Virus record (IMG/VR): IMGVR_UViG_2695420380_000013
DNA from: a virus
Lineage: Duplodnaviria > Heunggongvirae > Uroviricota > Caudoviricetes
Strand: one strand, 5' to 3'
DNA length: 10,347 nt
Positions 118 through 9,377 of this stretch are shown here, in pieces. The notes beneath the pieces are model-generated. The model did not search any database. It worked only from the letters and a program-made list of their open reading frames with translations, and was not told the origin of the DNA. The position numbers and the translations under genes are program-made. How positions within the stretch are numbered: position 1 is the first letter of the stretch; each line of letters starts with the position of its first letter.

Positions 118-1200
118 TCATTTTCTCTGGCTGATCTTTACCGGATAACCATCCCGAAGATCAATTAAGTGCTCCGGTTCAGAAGCAAACCATGCATAAG
201 ATCCCCACGCCAATTCTGGTATTGCCTTTTTAAAAGGCAGAGCACTTCTGTCCATAAATGCCGTAAGGAATGCAAGATTTTTCTCGCTGAACCCAGCGTC
301 AATAGCCAAATGAGTGAGAGTAACTTTTCGTTCCCTGTTTATAGGCCCATCTGTCGCAACTACTTCAGTGAAAACTACAAGCATGTCCGAACCCGTTCGG
401 TCCTCTCCCAAATCAATCAAAATAATATCTGGAAGTGCTTTTGAGGCATCAATATTCAGCCCCAATGCTTTTGCCAATACATCATCCTGAGCAACAACTT
501 TATTCCCGGATTCAGACAACCAGAGCACAGTTGGATTCTTAAGAAAATTAGGAGCAAAAACTTCGATGACGGCCTTAGCTATTGTACTTGACGGGCCCGG
601 AGCTAAAGTTCTCTTCTCTCCATTTGGGAAAGTGACGACTACGGCATCAGCAGCAATCACTGCCCCTGATTTCAATAAACGCAACCTAGCAAGAGCGGCT
701 TTGTTCAAATGATTTTCTTGCCAGGAACTTATTGCACTCAGCAGCGAATCTCCTTCAAGCCCGGCATCAAAGAGTGCTGCAAAAGAGCGATTCAAACTGT
801 AACGAGGACGAGAGGATGTGGTGGGTATACCTTTACGCTCAACAATTGCATTGCAAGGTATTAGGCCATTTTTTATAGTTTCATCACGTATTGGCTCACG
901 CGTATTTTCCGCATACCATGCATCAGCAGGCCTTATCTTTTGTTTAGAGAAAGTCATCTTTACCCAGCTTTCTCTGGACGCATCATCAGTAAGAGCAGCC
1001 TGCGAATCTCCCATACTTACAACCTGGCTGGGCCTTATCCATCGCCCCAGCCCCTCAACCGCACCAGCATAAAACATGACAAAAATTGTTTTTGCAGCTA
1101 TTTCCCGAATTAAATATCCACGATTCTCAGTCCCTTCAGGGAAAATTAATTGTAATCTTTCCCGGATAACATTCAATGGGGGAACAACAGGCAGATTCAT
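118..1200 (-). CDS. Candidate Type II restriction endonuclease (360 aa), partner of the upstream methyltransferase; family not established (possibly BsuBI/PstI-like)
   Basis: Long minus-strand ORF whose ATG (1200-1198) overlaps the methyltransferase stop (1199-1197) as ATGA, indicating translational coupling in an M-then-R operon. No ATPase or methyltransferase motifs. AT-rich like the methyltransferase gene. The endonuclease call rests on context; the family guess is from memory of the N-terminal region and is unverified. Confidence 0.55.
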   Translation of the reverse strand: MNLPVVPPLNVIRERLQLIFPEGTENRGYLIREIAAKTIFVMFYAGAVEGLGRWIRPSQVVSMGDSQAALTDDASRESWVKMTFSKQKIRPADAWYAENTREPIRDETIKNGLIPCNAIVERKGIPTTSSRPRYSLNRSFAALFDAGLEGDSLLSAISSWQENHLNKAALARLRLLKSGAVIAADAVVVTFPNGEKRTLAPGPSSTIAKAVIEVFAPNFLKNPTVLWLSESGNKVVAQDDVLAKALGLNIDASKALPDIILIDLGEDRTGSDMLVVFTEVVATDGPINRERKVTLTHLAIDAGFSEKNLAFLTAFMDRSALPFKKAIPELAWGSYAWFASEPEHLIDLRDGYPVKISQRK

Positions 1201-3029
1201 GCAATCATCACTCCATAGAAACCAGCGATAGTTCTCTCAATAATCCGTCTGTGGACGCCAGCATCAATTAACGATTGAATCTCCATCACCTGCTCCAGAG
1301 AAGGCAACGGGATTGAATTCAATTCATAGGCCGAAACAGCAACACTTCCGCTTATACACCTGAACGCCCGATCGACAACATGCGAATTAAGTAGCATATC
1401 AATAACATCAGGGCGAACCGCAGAGAACAATCCGTTTGAATATACAATATTAATATGGTTTTCAACTACTACGCCACCAGTTTCATCTATAAATCCCTGA
1501 GGTAAAATTGCCGCTAAAATCCTTCTGTCCTGTTCCTTCGATGTTGTCCGCTGAACAAGCACACATTCAGATTTTGTCACAAGGAAACCCTGTTGTGGGG
1601 TTATATCGATATAGGGAACATGATTTTTTCTGTCTGCACTAAAACGAAAACCAGCTGAAGTTATTGATTCCGCCCAGACTAATGGGTAGCTATTTTTTCC
1701 TTTCGTCGTACGCAACTGCGACTTAAATCGATTCCAGACTAACTGACCTGTAGAGACTGAGTATCCCAGATCAGCTAAACGCGTAGACATCTGTTTTAAT
1801 ACATTAAGAAAACAGGCATCATCTTTAACGCGTGGCAAAAGCCACGTTGCTCCACCTTTTTCTATATCAACATTACCTATTTTCTCAATTTTTGCTTTGT
1901 TCAACCCCTTAGGGACAAGTGAGGATACCTGGGCCCGAACTTTATGTTCTCCCGCCTTGAATGCTGTCAACATTGTTTCCTGGAGAACATCGTCAAAGAC
2001 CCCATCCCTGTCAGTGACGAAATCAAGGGCATACGGAGTAGTTTTTTCGGTCAAAAGGGTTCGCAGCGCGGTGAAATACTGCCCACCAAGAAAAGAAGTT
2101 GGCGTAAGAAATGCAATAACTCCTGTTTTCTCTTTAACCATGCGAACAGCTAAGTCGGTGAACAATCCATATAGATTTGCATGACCAAATAACGAACGAG
2201 AATATTTTTCTCTCGTTTTAATATCGAGAGTGACACGTCCGTAAGGCGGATTCCCTACCACAAGATCATAACCAGAAAATTTATCTTGCTGAAGCGCATC
2301 AGCAACAATAATTGTATCTTCAGGCAATCTACGTTTTACCTTTACACATAGTGGCATTAGTACAGATTCGAGCAATACCAAACTCATCCAAGCCGCAAAT
2401 GGATCGATTTCTATCCCCTTTAAACGACGACTGATTCTCCTCAACATCCATTCAGGGGAAGACCCCTTGTCTTTTTTTAACATTCGAATGGCTACTGGTG
2501 CCAAAAATGCACCGCCACCACACGCAGGATCAATAACCGATGCATGAGAAAAATCAACACCAGACTTTTCAGCCAGGTCCAAGAGACGCGCTACCAAAGG
2601 TGGGGGGGTATAGTAAGCCCCCAATTCCGAACGGTAAGCGGATGGCAGCATTACCGTATAAATTGACCCAATCAGATATCCAGCGTCCTCCGCCGGAAAT
2701 TGAGCAATAAGCTCACCTGTTCGTTCAGCGAGCTCGCGTGCATCACATGGAATGTCTTCTATGTAAACAGTGTGCGGTACTGCCCTCATTTTAATGCTGC
2801 TTTTTTGCTTTTTTGCAAGGGTATCCCAATATGCAGCTACGATGCTGAAGCAGTATGAGCGGGCATGCATCAACCTTGACTGCCCGGTTTTGTAATTGCC
2901 CGCATAACCTTTGGCCATGGCTTTACAAGTTTGATATCTTTCCAGATTAGAAAACTCATTATCTGTAAAAAAATCAAAATGTTGCACATTCATAATGTAA
3001 AATCCTAATGTATCAAACATGCGGGCCAT
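1197..3029 (-). CDS. N6-adenine-specific DNA methyltransferase, gamma-like motif order (610 aa from the first ATG; an alternative start at 2993 has a better-placed AGGA)
   Basis: Translation contains GAYYTPPPLVARLL (motif X-like), VIDPACGGGAFL (AdoMet-binding motif I) and VVGNPPYGR (catalytic NPPY motif IV), followed by a ~350-aa C-terminal region consistent with a target-recognition domain. Single uninterrupted ORF. Confidence 0.9.
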   Translation of the reverse strand: MARMFDTLGFYIMNVQHFDFFTDNEFSNLERYQTCKAMAKGYAGNYKTGQSRLMHARSYCFSIVAAYWDTLAKKQKSSIKMRAVPHTVYIEDIPCDARELAERTGELIAQFPAEDAGYLIGSIYTVMLPSAYRSELGAYYTPPPLVARLLDLAEKSGVDFSHASVIDPACGGGAFLAPVAIRMLKKDKGSSPEWMLRRISRRLKGIEIDPFAAWMSLVLLESVLMPLCVKVKRRLPEDTIIVADALQQDKFSGYDLVVGNPPYGRVTLDIKTREKYSRSLFGHANLYGLFTDLAVRMVKEKTGVIAFLTPTSFLGGQYFTALRTLLTEKTTPYALDFVTDRDGVFDDVLQETMLTAFKAGEHKVRAQVSSLVPKGLNKAKIEKIGNVDIEKGGATWLLPRVKDDACFLNVLKQMSTRLADLGYSVSTGQLVWNRFKSQLRTTKGKNSYPLVWAESITSAGFRFSADRKNHVPYIDITPQQGFLVTKSECVLVQRTTSKEQDRRILAAILPQGFIDETGGVVVENHINIVYSNGLFSAVRPDVIDMLLNSHVVDRAFRCISGSVAVSAYELNSIPLPSLEQVMEIQSLIDAGVHRRIIERTIAGFYGVMIA

Positions 3030-3657: not shown

Positions 3658-3780
3658 TCACAGTACCGCCTCCTGAAAATCACCCTGATAGAAAGCCGGT
3701 ACACGCTGCATAACTTCACTCTTCCGGCACTCGCGACAGATTATGTTCTGATGTCTGTCGTAGCGGCGTATTTCTCCGTC
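3658..3780 (-). pseudogene. 3' remnant of a paralog of the hypothetical gene at 4200-4771, cut off at the N-run/IS1 junction
   Basis: Encodes DGEIRRYDRHQNIICRECRKSEVMQRVPAFYQGDFQEAVL, which matches the C-terminus of the 4200-4538 ORF (DGEIRRYDRRQNIICSECRKSEAMQRVLAFYQGNFQKVLL). The DNA at 3658-3780 aligns with 4200-4322 at roughly 85-90 percent identity. The upstream part is replaced by NNNNNNNN plus IS1 interior sequence. Confidence 0.6.
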
Positions 3781-3788
3781 NNNNNNNN
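3781..3788. other. Run of 8 N (unresolved bases or scaffold join) exactly at the junction between the phage-gene remnant and IS1 interior
   Basis: Literal n characters in the sequence. Confidence 0.95.
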
Positions 3789-4127
3789 GCCAGCGCTGGC
3801 GCGATTTAGCCCCGACATAGCCCCACTGTTCGTCCATTTCCGCGCAGACGATGACGTCACTGCCCGGCTGTATGCGCGAGGTTACCGACTGCGGCCTGAG
3901 TTTTTTAAGTGACGTAAAATCGTGTTGAGGCCAACGCCCATAATGCGTGCAGTTGCCATGTTTTACGGCAGTGAGAGCAGAGATAGCGCTGATGTCCGGC
4001 AGTGCTTTTGCCGTTACGCACCACCCCGTCAGTAGCTGAACAGGAGGGACAGCTGATAGAAACAGAAGCCACTGGAGCACCTCAAAAACACCATCATACA
4101 CTAAATCAGTAAGTTGGCAGCATCACC
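3789..4127 (-). mobile_element. IS1 fragment: IRL end plus insA region and 5' part of insB; truncated on the insB/IRR side, with an apparent internal deletion inside insA
   Basis: Ends with the IS1 IRL reverse complement at 4097-4127. The minus-strand translation contains the InsA N-terminus ([41 protein letters not shown]) and InsB residues ([52 protein letters not shown]). Relative to IS1 as I recall it, about 85 bp between ...GGCAACTGCA and CGCATTATGGGCG... are missing, which would frameshift insA. Only about 339 of 768 bp are present. Confidence 0.85.
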
Positions 4128-4199
4128 ACAGTGCTGAACTTAATTATTCAGATTTTGGATTATGCTTTCTCTTCACGAAGTTCCGATTGTTAATTTGGC

Positions 4200-4771
4200 T
4201 CACAACAGCACCTTCTGAAAATTACCCTGATAGAAAGCCAGTACACGCTGCATAGCTTCGCTCTTCCGGCACTCGCTACAGATTATGTTTTGACGCCTGT
4301 CGTAGCGGCGTATTTCTCCGTCTGGTAATGACCAGATAAGGTCAGGATCAACCACAGATGGTTTCTTCAGATTTGCCCTTGAGAGTTTTTTGCGGGCGTT
4401 TTGCCAGTCCTTACGCGCCTGTTCAGACGGGAATAACCCGTAACCAGAGTTGTATACATCGCCACTGGCAACCAGCTCTCTGGCGAGAACACTCATCAGA
4501 TATCTTGTCGCACCTGTCTTGGCTTCCAGTTGCCGCAACGTCTCGCGACCGCTCAGACGTACAAGTTCAACAACCTGCCCTTNNNNNNNNNNNNNNAGTT
4601 GTATACATCCCCACTGGCAACCAGCTCTCTGGCGAGAACGCTTATTAAATATCTTGTCGCCCCGGTTTTAGCTTCCAGTTGTCGTAACGTCTCGCGCCCA
4701 CTCTGGCGTACGAGTTCAACAACCTGCCCCTTAATTTTTTCCCGCTCTTCCTGTGTAAATACTTTTGCCAT
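4200..4771 (-). CDS. Hypothetical phage protein (gene X), reading frame interrupted by a diverged tandem duplication and a 14-N run
   Basis: ATG at 4771 (MAKVFTQEEREKIKGQVVELVRQSGRETLRQLEAKTGATRYLISVLARELVASGDVYN...), then the N-run, then a second copy of the same segment (RQLEAKTGATRYLMSVLARELVASGDVYNSGYGLFPSEQARKDW...NFQKVLL) ending at 4200. If the duplication were collapsed, a continuous protein of about 148 aa would result. No family recognised. Confidence 0.45.
4448..4732. repeat. Tandem duplication of a ~135-bp segment (4448-4582 and 4597-4732), copies roughly 88 percent identical, separated by 14 N
   Basis: Both units begin agttgtatacatc(g/c)ccactggcaaccagctctctggcgagaac and end ...gttcaacaacctgccc(c)tt. 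About 16 scattered mismatches, so not a simple read-level duplication. Confidence 0.75.
4583..4596. other. Run of 14 N at the junction of the two tandem repeat units
   Basis: Literal n characters. Confidence 0.95.
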
Positions 4772-5533: not shown

Positions 5534-5824
5534 TTACTTCACAACTCCCGGAAAGCTGACATTTGAACGCCAGCTATCCCAGTTAAACGTCACCCACCGA
5601 CAACCGTTCATGGTCATGCGGTCCATAATCCTCTCACCAAGAAGCGTGCTCATTGCGGCATGATTCAGGTTTGTTAACATCCCGACACTGCACAGTGATG
5701 CTGTCCGGCGATCAATTATCTGGTGCAATACCACCTGCTCGTTTTTCGTCTCCCGCTGAATGCCTATTTCATCCAGGACCAGCAAATCAACCCCGCAAAG
5801 CTCCTGTAAAAATTTTTCACCGGA
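5534..5824 (-). CDS. DnaC-like replicative helicase loader, C-terminal part only (5' portion lies in the 593-N run)
   Basis: Translation ...LLVLDEIGIQRETKNEQVVLHQIIDRRTASLCSVGMLTNLNHAAMSTLLGERIMDRMTMNGCRWVTFNWDSWRSNVSF closely parallels the E. coli DnaC C-terminus (Walker B LLVIDEIG, NQIVDRR, GMLTNSN, LGERVMDRM, FNWDSYR). Stop at 5534-5536. Confidence 0.85.
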   Translation of the reverse strand, partial: SGEKFLQELCGVDLLVLDEIGIQRETKNEQVVLHQIIDRRTASLCSVGMLTNLNHAAMSTLLGERIMDRMTMNGCRWVTFNWDSWRSNVSFPGVVK

Positions 5825-6417
5825 NNNNNNNNNNNNNNNNNNNNNNNNNNNNNNNNNNNNNNNNNNNNNNNNNNNNNNNNNNNNNNNNNNNNNNNNNNNN
5901 NNNNNNNNNNNNNNNNNNNNNNNNNNNNNNNNNNNNNNNNNNNNNNNNNNNNNNNNNNNNNNNNNNNNNNNNNNNNNNNNNNNNNNNNNNNNNNNNNNNN
6001 NNNNNNNNNNNNNNNNNNNNNNNNNNNNNNNNNNNNNNNNNNNNNNNNNNNNNNNNNNNNNNNNNNNNNNNNNNNNNNNNNNNNNNNNNNNNNNNNNNNN
6101 NNNNNNNNNNNNNNNNNNNNNNNNNNNNNNNNNNNNNNNNNNNNNNNNNNNNNNNNNNNNNNNNNNNNNNNNNNNNNNNNNNNNNNNNNNNNNNNNNNNN
6201 NNNNNNNNNNNNNNNNNNNNNNNNNNNNNNNNNNNNNNNNNNNNNNNNNNNNNNNNNNNNNNNNNNNNNNNNNNNNNNNNNNNNNNNNNNNNNNNNNNNN
6301 NNNNNNNNNNNNNNNNNNNNNNNNNNNNNNNNNNNNNNNNNNNNNNNNNNNNNNNNNNNNNNNNNNNNNNNNNNNNNNNNNNNNNNNNNNNNNNNNNNNN
6401 NNNNNNNNNNNNNNNNN
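5825..6417. other. Run of 593 N (gap or masked segment) covering the 5' part of the DnaC-like gene
   Basis: Literal n characters. ORF-track entries crossing it are artefacts of translating N as X. Confidence 0.95.
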
Positions 6418-6560
6418 AGAAATATGATTCACACAACGCTGGTTGTTCGTGCCGCTTACCGGGAGCAACCAGGGGTTTTCAAAATTCCGGTCCGGCCCAA
6501 AAAACGTCGTCGCTCGCTGAACAAATTCCGTTCCCGCTTTCCCGGTCGCCGCCAGGTATC

Positions 6561-6910
6561 NNNNNNNNNNNNNNNNNNNNNNNNNNNNNNNNNNNNNNNN
6601 NNNNNNNNNNNNNNNNNNNNNNNNNNNNNNNNNNNNNNNNNNNNNNNNNNNNNNNNNNNNNNNNNNNNNNNNNNNNNNNNNNNNNNNNNNNNNNNNNNNN
6701 NNNNNNNNNNNNNNNNNNNNNNNNNNNNNNNNNNNNNNNNNNNNNNNNNNNNNNNNNNNNNNNNNNNNNNNNNNNNNNNNNNNNNNNNNNNNNNNNNNNN
6801 NNNNNNNNNNNNNNNNNNNNNNNNNNNNNNNNNNNNNNNNNNNNNNNNNNNNNNNNNNNNNNNNNNNNNNNNNNNNNNNNNNNNNNNNNNNNNNNNNNNN
6901 NNNNNNNNNN
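6561..6910. other. Run of 350 N (gap or masked segment) covering the 3' part of the O-like replication gene
   Basis: Literal n characters. The 143-bp island at 6418-6560 between the two runs is open in two minus-strand frames, so the true reading frame and gene boundary cannot be decided. Confidence 0.95.
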
Positions 6911-7510
6911 ATCGGCTTTCAGCGCATACGCTGAATCGGCTTCCGGTGTCGAGCCTGCTGGCTGACCAGGATTGACGGTCTGAACATCCCCTGCCTGGTT
7001 CGTGGCGTTTTTTACGCCATGGACCATAGTGTTTTGATCTTCTTTATCTGTATCTTTATCTGTATCTGTCGTGACTCGTCGTGACATGTGCGTGACATTT
7101 CGTGACGCGCCGTGACAATCGCCATTTTGTTCCCGCTTTCTTTCCCTCTCTCGCTGCGCCCTCTTGCGCTCTGCAGGAGATTTTGCGGTTTGCGAAATAT
7201 TGCCGTTGTCCTCTTTAAGCACCTGGCGTTTTTCCCATCCAGTGATTAAATCACCATCAAGTACCCGCCCCTGCATCGTCTGCAAAATTGAATCAATTAC
7301 CTCTTCTGTCACGTCGAGCGCACTTGCCAAATCTTCTGTCGTGACATCAATGTGACCTCGCGTGACATTTCGTGACGCGCTCACCAGGAGGTGGATATAC
7401 ACTGCCATCACTGTTGCAATTGGCTGCCCTGACACCCTGGCAATTGTTCGCCACTTAGGGTCATTTGGCATGTCATGCCATAATCTGAGCCAGGCGTTAG
7501 CCATACTCAC
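6911..7510 (-). CDS. Lambdoid replication initiation protein (O-like replisome organizer), N-terminal part; 3' end unresolved in the N-run
   Basis: Minus-strand ORF starting GTG 7510 or ATG 7504 (MANAWLRLWHDMPNDPKWRTIARVSGQPIATVMAVYIHLLVSASRNVTRGHIDVTTEDLASALDVTEEVIDSILQ...). Sits directly upstream of the DnaC-like gene and downstream of the cro-like/YdaT-like genes. Contains iteron-like DNA repeats that encode a repetitive acidic linker (VTTDTDKDTDKED), as in lambda O. Confidence 0.65.
7041..7116. repeat. Iteron-like repeat cluster inside the O-like gene: 12-bp tandem tctttatctgta x2, then five CGTGAC hexamers; candidate phage replication origin
   Basis: Direct reading: tctttatctgtatctttatctgta at 7041-7064, and cgtgac at 7070, 7080, 7091, 7101 and 7111. 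The 21-mer gcgtgacatttcgtgacgcgc at 7090-7110 is repeated exactly at 7360-7380. AT-rich tract immediately adjacent (7031-7068). Confidence 0.5.
7340..7380. repeat. Second CGTGAC/TGTGAC hexamer cluster, including an exact 21-bp copy of 7090-7110
   Basis: cgtgac at 7340, tgtgac at 7351, cgtgac at 7361 and 7371. The 21-mer gcgtgacatttcgtgacgcgc at 7360-7380 is identical to 7090-7110. Lies in the 5' part of the O-like gene (the encoded ASRNVT peptide is repeated too). Confidence 0.45.
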
Positions 7511-7575
7511 CTCTTCTGATACCGAATCTTTTTACTCACGAGTTGCCGGGAGCGATTCGATATGGCTATTGTCAG

Positions 7576-8337: not shown

Positions 8338-8372
8338 TCAAAGTGATTAGCAATCTTATTAGAATTGGATGT

Positions 8373-8873
8373 ATGAAAAGAAAATCATTGTCAGACACCG
8401 ACCTCAACGCCGCCAGAAGACTGAAAGAAATCTGGATGGCAAAGAAATCTCAGTTGGGATTGACTCAGGAACGTGCGGCGGAAATTATGGGGTTTTCAAC
8501 ACAAGGGGCGGTAAGTCACTACCTAAATGGTCAAACCCCACTAAACCTTGAGGCTGTTCTAAAGTTTGCTGGCTTACTGAAAGTTCCCCCTGAGTCAATC
8601 AGGCCAGACATGGTAGATTTGCTGCAAATTGCAAGGATGTATTGTCGAGAACCACAGCAAGATAACATAGTCGCATTACCAGCAGACACAGAACAAACAG
8701 AGGATGAACTACCGTTTGCCGTAGAGCCGATGGAACGAGATTTAATCCATACGTTCAGAGCTTTTCCGAAAGAAGATCAAGAACACATGCTTCAGGAGAT
8801 GAAAGATAAAAAAGAATCAATGGATCGTACGGTTGCGCGGTGGTTAGCTGCACAAAAAGGCCGTCGCGCCTAA
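8373..8873 (+). CDS. cI-like HTH (XRE-family) repressor without a peptidase S24 domain (RacR/PaaR-like), 166 aa from the ATG at 8373
   Basis: Translation MKRKSLSDTDLNAARRLKEIWMAKKSQLGLTQERAAEIMGFSTQGAVSHYLNGQTPLNLEAVLKFAGLL... has a classic HTH (LGLTQERAAEIMGFSTQGAVSHYLNG) and an acidic C-terminal tail. No Ser/Lys autocleavage motifs seen. Divergent from the cro-like gene and directly upstream of the antitoxin/toxin pair. Confidence 0.8.
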   Translation: MKRKSLSDTDLNAARRLKEIWMAKKSQLGLTQERAAEIMGFSTQGAVSHYLNGQTPLNLEAVLKFAGLLKVPPESIRPDMVDLLQIARMYCREPQQDNIVALPADTEQTEDELPFAVEPMERDLIHTFRAFPKEDQEHMLQEMKDKKESMDRTVARWLAAQKGRRA

Positions 8874-8892
8874 ATCAGAGGAGATATGTAAA

Positions 8893-9087
8893 ATGAGTAC
8901 AGTCCTTTCCCCAATGGTTTCAGAATTTGAGACAGTTGAGCAAGAAAATAGTTACAACGAATGGCTGCGGGCCAAAGTAGCAGCAAGCCTCGCGGATCCC
9001 CGCCCGGCGATTCCGCATGATGAGGTAATGGCGGAAATGGAACAAATTATTGCCCAAATTGCTGCTGCAACTCACAGAGGTGAATAA
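8893..9087 (+). CDS. Small antitoxin (64 aa) partnered with the ParE-family toxin; ParE-associated (PaaA-like) antitoxin candidate
   Basis: ATG at 8893 with a GAGGAG Shine-Dalgarno upstream. Its stop TAA (9085-9087) overlaps the toxin ATG (9087-9089) as TAATG. Size and position are typical of type II antitoxins. No clear ribbon-helix-helix signature, so the family is inferred from context. Confidence 0.65.
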   Translation: MSTVLSPMVSEFETVEQENSYNEWLRAKVAASLADPRPAIPHDEVMAEMEQIIAQIAAATHRGE

Positions 9088-9377
9088 TGTTACCCGTTTT
9101 ATGGCTACCATCTGCTCGTGATGATTTGCGCCAGATCGTAGCCTACATAGCTAAAGAAAATCCCGCGGCAGCACGCAGAATGAAAATTCGAATTGAAACA
9201 TCCGTTTTGCCGCTCACAGAGCATCCTTACCTGTATCCTCCAAGCGAGCGAGTTCTTGGTCTTCGTGAAATTGTAACTCATCCTAACTACATCATCCTTT
9301 ACCGAGTAACAGCATCAAGCATAGAAGTAGTAAATATTGTGCATTCTCGAAGACAGTATCCAGGCAAAAACAGTTAA
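9087..9377 (+). CDS. parE: ParE/RelE-superfamily toxin (96 aa)
   Basis: Translation MLPVLWLPSARDDLRQIVAYIAKENPAAARRMKIRIETSV...YIILYRVTASSIEVVNIVHSRRQ matches the conserved ParE pattern (DL..I..YIA..NP.AA.R....I......YRV.....EI.RVLH.R). Translationally coupled to the upstream antitoxin. Confidence 0.85.
   Translation: MLPVLWLPSARDDLRQIVAYIAKENPAAARRMKIRIETSVLPLTEHPYLYPPSERVLGLREIVTHPNYIILYRVTASSIEVVNIVHSRRQYPGKNS

What the first reader, a model, noticed from the sequence alone, without database searches (positions are those of the whole stretch)
7041..7380. Iteron-like CGTGAC repeats and an exact 21-bp direct repeat inside the O-like replication gene: candidate ori
There are five CGTGAC hexamers within 47 bp next to an AT-rich tract with a 12-bp tandem repeat, plus a second hexamer cluster about 270 bp away that includes an exact 21-bp copy (7090-7110 and 7360-7380). 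In lambda the origin lies inside gene O as iterons plus an AT-rich region. This gene appears to copy that architecture, with the repeats encoding a repetitive linker peptide.
Basis: partly seen in the sequence, partly recalled or inferred. Interest (0 to 1): 0.5.

Follow-up and report, generated by a model that had tools for sequence, protein, structure and literature searches.

The report
Phage replication origin inside initiator gene
The repeated CGTGAC hexamers are real, selected as DNA rather than as protein code, and together with the neighbouring AT-rich tract almost certainly form the prophage's replication origin inside its own initiator gene: a lambda-like layout in an unrelated, previously unmapped protein family.

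Summary
All nine CGTGAC copies in the 10.3-kb window lie in 7070-7376: array A has 5 copies, array B has 3 plus one TGTGAC, and one copy is inverted. The 21-bp repeat is exact.

The gene (7504 down to about 6380, minus strand, partly N-masked) encodes a winged-helix "phage replisome organizer". It is not a lambda O homologue.

In 52 homologous loci from gamma- and beta-proteobacteria, two arrays sit at the same gene positions with 10/11-bp spacing. The hexamer falls in all three reading frames. Synonymous sites inside it are 98% conserved, against 56% elsewhere (p = 8e-6). More distant homologues carry GTAACG or CGAACG at the same two positions, and the type tracks a basic helix encoded just upstream of array A. 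Array A is followed by a (GATAAA/GATACA)n AT-rich tract (70% vs 45% AT) and, in the window, by a stable hairpin. Neighbouring genes are not conserved; only the initiator travels with the repeats.

Best reading, confidence about 0.8: an iteron-type phage origin embedded in its initiator gene. It resembles ori-lambda in O and SPP1 oriL in gene 38 in function. No replication assay exists for this family. I rate it a new member of a known kind, of moderate interest.

The parts
6418..7504 (-). Replication initiator gene ('phage replisome organizer', phrog_3729). ATG at 7504; 6561-6910 is N-masked, and the 3' end runs into the N-run at 6417.
   Evidence: Translation. It is 98% nt identical to phage Evi's 356-aa gene. 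phrog_3729 matches at E 1e-256. NCBI names are listed. The ORF listing end at 6479 is an artefact of reading through the Ns.
7235..7504 (-). Coding region of the N-terminal winged-helix domain (aa 1-90).
7340..7376 (+). Iteron array B: CGTGAC at 7340, TGTGAC at 7351, CGTGAC at 7361 and 7371. It encodes aa 43-55 (ASRNVTRGHIDVT), the alpha1-alpha2 loop of the winged helix.
   Evidence: The position is conserved at gene nt ~129-160 in homologues. The array has 6 copies, adding 7 aa, in the 80%-identity E. coli variants.
7308..7313 (-). Single inverted iteron copy (GTCACG on the + strand; encodes D-V-T).
   Evidence: It is conserved at gene nt 193 in most GTCAC-type homologues. The Val codon is GTG in 17 of 17 sequences.
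7124..7183 (-). Coding region of the conserved basic helix (aa 108-127, AERKRAQRERERKRE). This is a candidate iteron-specificity determinant.
   Evidence: Helix H110-127 in the model. Its signature tracks iteron type in 41 of 42 typed loci.
7070..7116 (+). Iteron array A: five CGTGAC copies at 10/11-bp spacing. It encodes aa 130-145 of the interdomain linker.
7031..7069 (+). AT-rich tract, (GATAAA/GATACA)n on the coding strand, including the 12-bp tandem repeat at 7041-7067. This is the putative DNA-unwinding element; it encodes TDTDKDTDKED.
   Evidence: An equivalent tract follows array A in 38 of 41 homologous loci. Copy number varies between phages.
6996..7026 (.). 13-bp-stem inverted repeat (TGGTTCGTGGCGT / ACGCCATGGACCA) flanking the AT-rich tract.
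   Evidence: I5. Folded as DNA it gives dG -10.9 kcal/mol and z -5.3. Its function is inferred only.
5534..5824 (-). C-terminal part of a DnaC/IstB-like helicase-loader gene directly downstream; its 5' part is N-masked.
   Evidence: Pfam IstB_IS21, E 2.4e-5.

Best explanation
The region 6996-7380 is the replication origin of a lambdoid-type prophage, embedded in the gene of its own initiator. Shown: the sequence layout and the selection acting on it. Two arrays of a 6-bp iteron (GTCACG on the coding strand) are spaced one helical turn apart. One array sits in the interdomain linker and abuts an AT-rich (GATAAA/GATACA)n tract and a hairpin. The other lies about 230 bp upstream, inside the winged-helix coding region. 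Inferred: the mechanism. The initiator's N-terminal region (winged helix plus the adjacent basic helix) binds the phased iterons cooperatively on one face of the DNA, possibly bridging the two arrays. This would form an O-some-like nucleoprotein complex that melts the adjacent AT-rich tract. The variable C-terminal domain, here carrying a DnaT-like SEPDxxIPPGFRG tail, together with the DnaC/IstB-like protein encoded downstream, would then bring in host DnaB. Array B may additionally serve copy control or autoregulation.
For: (1) Clustering is far beyond chance and unique in the genome. (2) 41 of 52 homologous loci from many gamma- and beta-proteobacterial genera have two arrays at the same gene positions. 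Spacing is 10 bp in 145 cases and 11 bp in 37. (3) Selection acts on the DNA. The hexamers occupy all three frames (81/54/59). The modal-codon fraction is 0.98 at synonymous sites inside iterons against 0.56 elsewhere, across 19 genes of 42-68% GC (p = 8e-6). In the 80%-identity E. coli variants the spacers diverge while the hexamers do not. (4) Iteron type switches (GTCACG, GTAACG, CGAACG) at unchanged positions, always the same in both arrays, and tracks the basic-helix signature in 41 of 42 loci. (5) An AT-rich tract directly follows array A in 38 of 41 loci. (6) Only the initiator N-terminus is co-inherited with the repeats; neighbouring genes occur in 2-5 of 52 loci, and C-terminal domains and loaders are swapped. 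(7) The protein is a winged-helix replisome organizer with a helicase loader downstream. (8) There is precedent for origins inside initiator genes: lambda O (PMC7466680; annotated iterons) and SPP1 gene 38 (PMC6316719). Iteron copy-number changes add residues to the protein here, as in Stx-phage O.
Against: There is no experimental evidence, such as replication, binding or unwinding assays, for any member of this family, and no paper on it was found. The association between iteron type and the basic helix is confounded by phylogeny and by physical linkage, since the helix is encoded about 10-40 bp from array A. One locus (L029) breaks the association. About 8-10 distant homologues have weak or no recognisable arrays. 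The winged-helix recognition helix is acidic/hydrophobic, so the DNA-reading surface is not obvious. No DnaA box was found within one mismatch.
Confidence: 0.8

Rival explanations
1. The hexamer arrays are initiator-binding operators used only for autoregulation, copy control or incompatibility (handcuffing or titration), as with plasmid control iterons, and the true origin lies elsewhere in the prophage.
For: There are two separated arrays, one of them (B) with no AT-rich neighbour. Array B is lost in L041 while array A is kept, so the two arrays may have different roles.
Against: Array A is consistently coupled to an AT-rich tract. There is only one cluster in the whole phage Evi genome. The position in the interdomain linker matches ori-lambda.
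Confidence: 0.1
2. The repeats are binding sites for some other protein, such as a host factor, the YdaT/cII-like regulator, or a terminase (a pac-like site), and not for the initiator.
For: No binding data exist. Hexamer clusters are also known from pac sites such as P1 pac (my own knowledge, not tested here).
Against: Neighbouring genes are not conserved with the repeats. Iteron type differs between phages of related hosts and changes together with a segment of the initiator. The repeats always sit inside the initiator gene.
Confidence: 0.06
3. The repeats are merely coding repeats for a repetitive peptide, or a recent internal duplication, with no function at the DNA level.
For: Both copies of the exact 21-bp repeat encode ASRNVT. 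Slippage-type copy-number variation exists.
Against: The hexamers lie in all three reading frames. Synonymous sites are almost invariant across 19 diverged genes. The 10/11-bp period is not a multiple of 3. The arrangement is conserved down to 57% protein identity.
Confidence: 0.01

Closest known systems
ori-lambda inside gene O of phage lambda and the Stx phages
   Same: The origin lies in the initiator gene, in the linker between the DNA-binding N-domain and the loader-binding C-domain. Iterons are followed by an AT-rich tract and then an inverted repeat. Iteron copy-number changes add residues to the protein. The N-domain plus ori behaves as a module with exchangeable C-domains (here).
   Different: The protein is not homologous. 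Iterons here have a 6-bp core as phased direct repeats, not 18-bp palindromes. A second array lies inside the DNA-binding-domain coding region. The loader here is DnaC/IstB-like rather than P.
SPP1 G38P replisome organizer and oriL within gene 38 (and similar origins in lactococcal phage replisome-organizer genes, the latter from my own knowledge)
   Same: An origin-binding 'replisome organizer' binds direct repeats next to an AT-rich unwinding element located within its own gene, and a helicase loader is encoded downstream (PMC6316719). NCBI annotates the present protein as a phage replisome organizer.
   Different: The match to Phage_rep_org_N is only sub-threshold (E 0.12 and 0.015). The hosts are Proteobacteria. 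There are two arrays within one gene rather than two distant origins. There is no phage-encoded DnaB here.
Iteron-regulated plasmid origins (P1, F, R6K, pPS10)
   Same: Short, phased direct repeats are bound by a cis-encoded winged-helix initiator next to an AT-rich tract. A second iteron set may be used for control (my own knowledge).
   Different: Here both arrays lie inside the coding sequence. There is no significant structural or sequence match to RepA/Pi-type initiators beyond the generic winged-helix fold.
Rac prophage ydaU region (oriJ replicon)
   Same: The operon context is the same (HTH, YdaT, initiator, DnaC-like). The C-terminal IPPGFRG tail is shared (E 6e-6). ydaU contains TGTTCAA-type direct repeats followed by (GATAAA)n and a C7-N5-C7-G5 element, which is the same layout. 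Rac is reported to have an active origin, oriJ (PMC3945230).
   Different: The YdaU N-terminal domain is DUF1376 and is not homologous, and its repeats are different. The exact position of oriJ was not available to me.

Membership tests
Lambda O / ori-lambda | Initiator N-terminal domain belongs to Pfam Phage_rep_O (PF04492) or is homologous to lambda O | tested here: not met
   There is no PF04492 hit at E <= 1. BLASTP against lambda O gives a best E of 0.04, and only over the low-complexity linker.
Lambda O / ori-lambda | Four or more iterons of about 18 bp, each an inverted repeat | tested here: not met
   The iterons here have a 6-bp core and a 10/11-bp period, and are direct repeats. The lambda iterons are shown for comparison.
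Lambda O / ori-lambda | [quoted passage not shown] | tested here: met
   Array A covers aa 130-145 and the AT-rich tract follows directly. The lambda layout is described.
Phage replisome organizer (Phage_rep_org_N, SPP1 G38P type) | N-terminal domain matches PF09681 / TIGR01714 | tested here: inconclusive
Phage replisome organizer (Phage_rep_org_N, SPP1 G38P type) | Direct repeats plus an AT-rich unwinding element within the organizer's own gene | tested here: met
.
Phage replisome organizer (Phage_rep_org_N, SPP1 G38P type) | Helicase loader encoded immediately downstream | tested here: met
   An IstB/DnaC-like ORF lies at 5534-5824 and beyond. Variants have a lambda-P-like protein or no loader.
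Iteron-type replication origin (general) | At least 3 phased direct repeats, an adjacent AT-rich tract and a cis-encoded initiator | tested here: met
Iteron-type replication origin (general) | Iteron sequence co-varies with the initiator | tested here: met
   There are three iteron types at fixed positions. Both arrays always share the type, and the basic-helix signature matches the type in 41 of 42 loci. This is confounded by phylogeny and linkage.
Iteron-type replication origin (general) | Initiator binds the iterons, and the fragment replicates autonomously when the initiator is supplied | not testable with these tools
   Requires EMSA or footprinting and a plasmid replication assay.
Rac YdaU (DUF1376) replicon / oriJ | Initiator N-terminal domain homologous to YdaU | tested here: not met
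   BLASTP aligns only the last 19 residues (E 6e-6) and the low-complexity linker.

The most novel reading that the evidence does not exclude
The iteron DNA and part of its reader may be the same nucleotides. Array B encodes the alpha1-alpha2 loop of the winged helix (ASRNVTRGHxDVT, ASNATERGRTQ or CNAVKRGETQCNA, according to iteron type). Apart from the basic helix, this loop is the only part of the N-terminal domain that changes with iteron type. If the loop contributes to iteron recognition, a change of iteron would rewrite both the site and its reader at once. That would be a self-referential route to new origin specificities and to replicon incompatibility groups.
Probability: 0.07. Interest if true: 0.85.

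Novelty: new member of a known kind. Interest (0 to 1): 0.45.

Why it matters
This initiator family is very common. Part of the query region matches 3,069 of 5,426 complete E. coli genomes, though most of those matches cover only ydaT. The family itself occurs in Shigella, Salmonella, Pseudomonas, Bordetella and Aeromonas phages and many others. Its genes are annotated only as 'hypothetical', 'primosomal protein I' or 'replisome organizer', with no origin marked.

The result gives a precise, testable origin map: core hexamer, two arrays, unwinding tract. It also gives a simple rule for finding the origin in hundreds of prophages.

The three natural iteron types on an otherwise conserved domain offer a compact system for studying how initiator-origin specificity evolves when the site is constrained by also having to encode the protein. 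Practically, it helps interpret prophage induction, replication and incompatibility in pathogenic E. coli and Shigella.

Tried and rejected
- Pfam, NCBIfam and BLASTP tests for homology with lambda O were negative.
- A sequence search of the PDB found only the DnaT-like C-terminal tail.
- The first AF2 run, with 11 sequences and the disordered tail included, was poor (pLDDT 58). It was repeated on aa 1-130 with 50 sequences.
- A DnaA-box search found no match within one mismatch.
- Literature searches on Stx-phage 'Eru' replication modules, replisome organizer plus iterons, the hexamer itself, and oriJ/ydaU found no description of this origin.
- The hypothesis that the repeats belong to a neighbouring gene product was rejected, because the neighbours are not conserved.
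- Peptide repeat and chance were both rejected.
- The ORF listing gene end at 6479 was rejected as an artefact of the N-mask. The true frame continues to 6418 and beyond.

Full report
**Observation.** CGTGAC starts at 7070, 7080, 7091, 7101 and 7111, giving 5 copies in 47 bp. It also starts at 7340, 7361 and 7371, with a one-mismatch copy (TGTGAC) at 7351, and one inverted copy lies at 7308. These nine are the only copies in the 10,347-base window, where 3.3 +/- 1.8 are expected. In 300 dinucleotide-preserving shuffles, no hexamer of any sequence reached more than 3 non-overlapping copies in 50 bp, against 5 observed. The 21-bp repeat at 7090-7110 and 7360-7380 is exact, and an 11-bp TCTGTCGTGAC is also exact at the left edge of each array (D8). 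The 12-bp tandem at 7041-7067 is perfect and sits in a tract of 28% GC. The window contains N-masked runs at 5825-6417 and 6561-6910 that hide the middle of the gene and the start of the next one.

**The gene.** The repeats lie in a minus-strand gene that starts with the ATG at 7504 (MANAWLRLWHDMPNDPKWRT...). The ORF end given by the ORF listing (6479) is an artefact of reading through the Ns. In the correct frame the unmasked fragment 6418-6560 encodes ...ATGKAGTEFVQRATTFFGPDRNFENPWLLPVSGTNNQRCVNHIS, which matches the C-terminal region of the 356-aa protein of phage Evi. That phage is 98% identical over 6911-7575.

The protein is phrog_3729, 'replication initiation protein' (E 1e-256), and NCBI names it 'phage replisome organizer'. 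It does not match Pfam Phage_rep_O and has no significant BLASTP similarity to lambda O. The match to Phage_rep_org_N is sub-threshold.

The operon context runs, in order: a cI/PaaR-like repressor (plus strand), then on the minus strand a Cro-like HTH, a YdaT-like protein, the initiator, a DnaC/IstB-like loader, DUF1627 and DUF977.

**Related sequences.** An alignment-based scan of one genome per species returned 52 loci encoding relatives with 39-97% identity. They come from Shigella, E. albertii, Rahnella, Serratia, Pantoea, Erwinia, Enterobacter, Pseudomonas, Aquitalea, Chromobacterium, Bordetella, Acidovorax, Variovorax, Gilvimarinus, Sphingomonas and others. In coding orientation the repeat is GTCACG.

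In 29 genes of this type the arrangement is almost the same as in the window. Four copies start at gene nt ~129, 139, 149 and 160, one inverted copy lies at nt 193, and three to five copies lie at nt ~387-430. Start-to-start spacing over 41 non-redundant loci of all types is 10 bp in 145 cases and 11 bp in 37, which is one helical turn.

In E. coli variants that are only about 80% identical at the DNA level, all hexamers are kept while the spacers between them have changed. Array B has six copies there, adding seven residues (TCHGVSL) to the protein. One protein (P0001) carries a tandem duplication of the whole array A and AT-tract segment.

**DNA-level selection.** The hexamer is read in all three frames: GTCAC falls in frames 0/1/2 at 81/54/59 occurrences, giving VT, G/C-H and S-R. 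This excludes a peptide repeat.

In a codon alignment of 19 diverged GTCAC-type genes (GC 42-68%), I compared columns with conserved amino acids. The fraction of sequences using the modal codon is 0.98 at the eight third positions inside iterons: GTC 19/19, ACG 19/19, GGT 19/19, CAC 19/19, TCA 18/19. At 48 comparable columns outside iterons it is 0.56 (Mann-Whitney p = 8e-6). The inverted copy is likewise fixed, with Val GTG in 17 of 17.

**Specificity switching.** Homologues below about 55% identity lack GTCAC entirely. At the same two gene positions and the same 10-bp spacing they carry GTAACG (5 loci) or CGAACG(C) (12 loci). Both arrays of a gene always share the type.

Apart from the loop that array B itself encodes, the winged-helix domain is nearly constant across types. 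The basic helix encoded just upstream of array A, by contrast, has a type-specific signature:
- xRKRxQR goes with GTCAC in 24 of 24 loci.
- RaKxWR goes with CGAACG in 12 loci, plus 5 with degenerate repeats.
- RvxxYRE goes with GTAAC in 5 loci, with one exception (L029).

Locus L041 has a winged helix resembling the CGAACG clade, but an ERKRQQR helix and GTCAC iterons in array A only. This fits a helix-plus-array-A module. The association is suggestive rather than decisive, because the helix and array A are physically linked and the clades are related.

**Flanking elements.** Array A is followed immediately by a purine-rich, AT-rich tract of (GATAAA/GATACA)n. The first 36 nt are 70% AT against 45% for the genes, and 38 of 41 loci exceed the gene mean by more than 10 points. 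Its repeat number varies between close relatives.

In the window the tract is followed by a 13-bp-stem inverted repeat at 6996-7026 (dG -10.9 kcal/mol, z = -5.3). In nine other loci, and in Rac ydaU, the corresponding place holds a C5-7/N/C5-7/G4-6 element that is otherwise very rare (0.008 per kb in the flanks).

**Linkage to the initiator.** Within +/-2.5 kb of the 52 loci, the window's YdaT-like, Cro-like, DnaC-like and DUF1627 genes occur in only 5, 3, 4 and 2 loci respectively. The initiator's own C-terminal domain and its downstream partner are also exchanged between relatives: a DnaT-like PF17948 domain with a lambda-P-like protein, an IPPGFRG tail with no loader, or an IPPGFRG tail with a DnaC-like loader. 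The only thing consistently inherited with the arrays is the N-terminal DNA-binding part of the initiator. In the full 40-kb genome of phage Evi there is a single cluster, with 9 of 26 copies in the initiator gene and the rest scattered singly.

**Interpretation.** Taken together, this is the signature of an iteron-type origin embedded in its initiator gene. The placement of array A and the AT-rich tract, in the linker after the DNA-binding domain, parallels ori-lambda in gene O. There the iterons lie at aa ~117-145 and are followed by an AT-rich tract. It also parallels SPP1 oriL in gene 38.

I infer that initiator molecules bind the phased hexamers on one face of the helix, oligomerise (perhaps bridging arrays A and B, about 230 bp apart), and open the AT-rich tract. 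The C-terminal domain and the DnaC-like protein would then recruit host DnaB. Array B may also act in copy control or autoregulation.

The sequence architecture and the selection on it are shown. Binding, unwinding and replication are inferred. No publication on this family's origin was found.

**Comparison with Rac.** Rac YdaU has an unrelated DUF1376 N-terminal domain; only the last 19 residues and the linker composition align. However, ydaU contains its own TGTTCAA-type direct repeats, followed by AATAAAGATACAGATAAAGATC and a C7-TAAAT-C7-G5 element. Rac is reported to have an active origin, oriJ. This suggests that a common 'AT-tract plus C-terminal domain' cassette is combined with different 'DNA-binding domain plus iteron' modules.

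**Verdict.** This is a new member of a known kind of element. Interest is moderate: the architecture is expected by analogy, but the family is widespread and unmapped, and the three natural iteron types make a neat system for studying specificity evolution.

Noticed in passing
window 6418-6480 (minus strand); L001:3530-3600: The initiator ends in a tail (…NHISEPDTEIPPGFRG in phage Evi) that matches the extreme C-terminus of the host replication-restart protein DnaT (PDB 6aep, 2ru8, 9zbt; NCBIfam DnaT E 1.4e-3). The same tail is on Rac YdaU (E 6e-6). Phage initiators with different DNA-binding domains seem to share a DnaT-like tail, perhaps to engage the host helicase-loading machinery.
   Followed up: partly
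L008, L011, L014, L018, L020, L024, L027, L045, L046 (gene nt ~435-720) and L059:3130-3160 (Rac ydaU): A C5-7 / N4-7 / C5-7 / N0-8 / G4-6 element lies 25-40 nt after the (GATAAA)n tract. It encodes PPLxPPRG using the rare codon CCC repeatedly. Background frequency in the flanks is 0.008 per kb. It could be a further origin element. It is absent from the window, which has a hairpin at that place instead.
   Followed up: partly
L046 gene nt 320-370; L054 gene nt 325-375: In two distant homologues the winged-helix domain is fused to a different downstream domain (YVYYV…GISRNPWAR). Array A is replaced by palindromic ACTACGTAGT-type repeats, and there is no array B.
   Followed up: no
window 118-3029 (minus strand): A BsuBI/PstI-type restriction endonuclease (360 aa) and an Eco57I/N6-type methyltransferase (610 aa) are encoded next to the replication module. 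This is probably a prophage-borne restriction-modification (defence) cassette. A PstI site (CTGCAG) lies inside the initiator gene at about 7171-7176.
   Followed up: no
window 8343-9377 (plus strand): An HTH repressor-like ORF (176 aa) is followed by PaaA2 (stability determinant) and a ParE toxin. This resembles the three-gene paaR2-paaA2-parE2 toxin-antitoxin system described in an O157:H7 cryptic prophage, so the 'cI-like' gene may be the TA regulator rather than, or as well as, the prophage repressor.
   Followed up: no
window 3658-4538 (minus strand): There are two DUF977 (Ren-like) ORF fragments. One is fused to the first 24 residues of an IS1 transposase profile, which suggests an IS1 insertion scar. 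Small N-runs lie nearby at 3781-3788 and 4583-4596.
   Followed up: no
P0001 (E. coli protein; alignment A2 columns ~150-190): This is a natural variant with a tandem duplication of the whole segment encoding array A plus the AT-rich tract (ERERKREQNGDCH.ASRNVTHMSRRVTTDKDTDK twice). It would be a duplicated origin core within one gene.
   Followed up: no
window 5825-6417 and 6561-6910: Long N-masked runs remove the middle of the initiator gene and the 5' part of the DnaC-like gene. The ORF listing reads through them and reports misleading ORFs, for example 6479-7510 and 5653-6975.
   Followed up: yes
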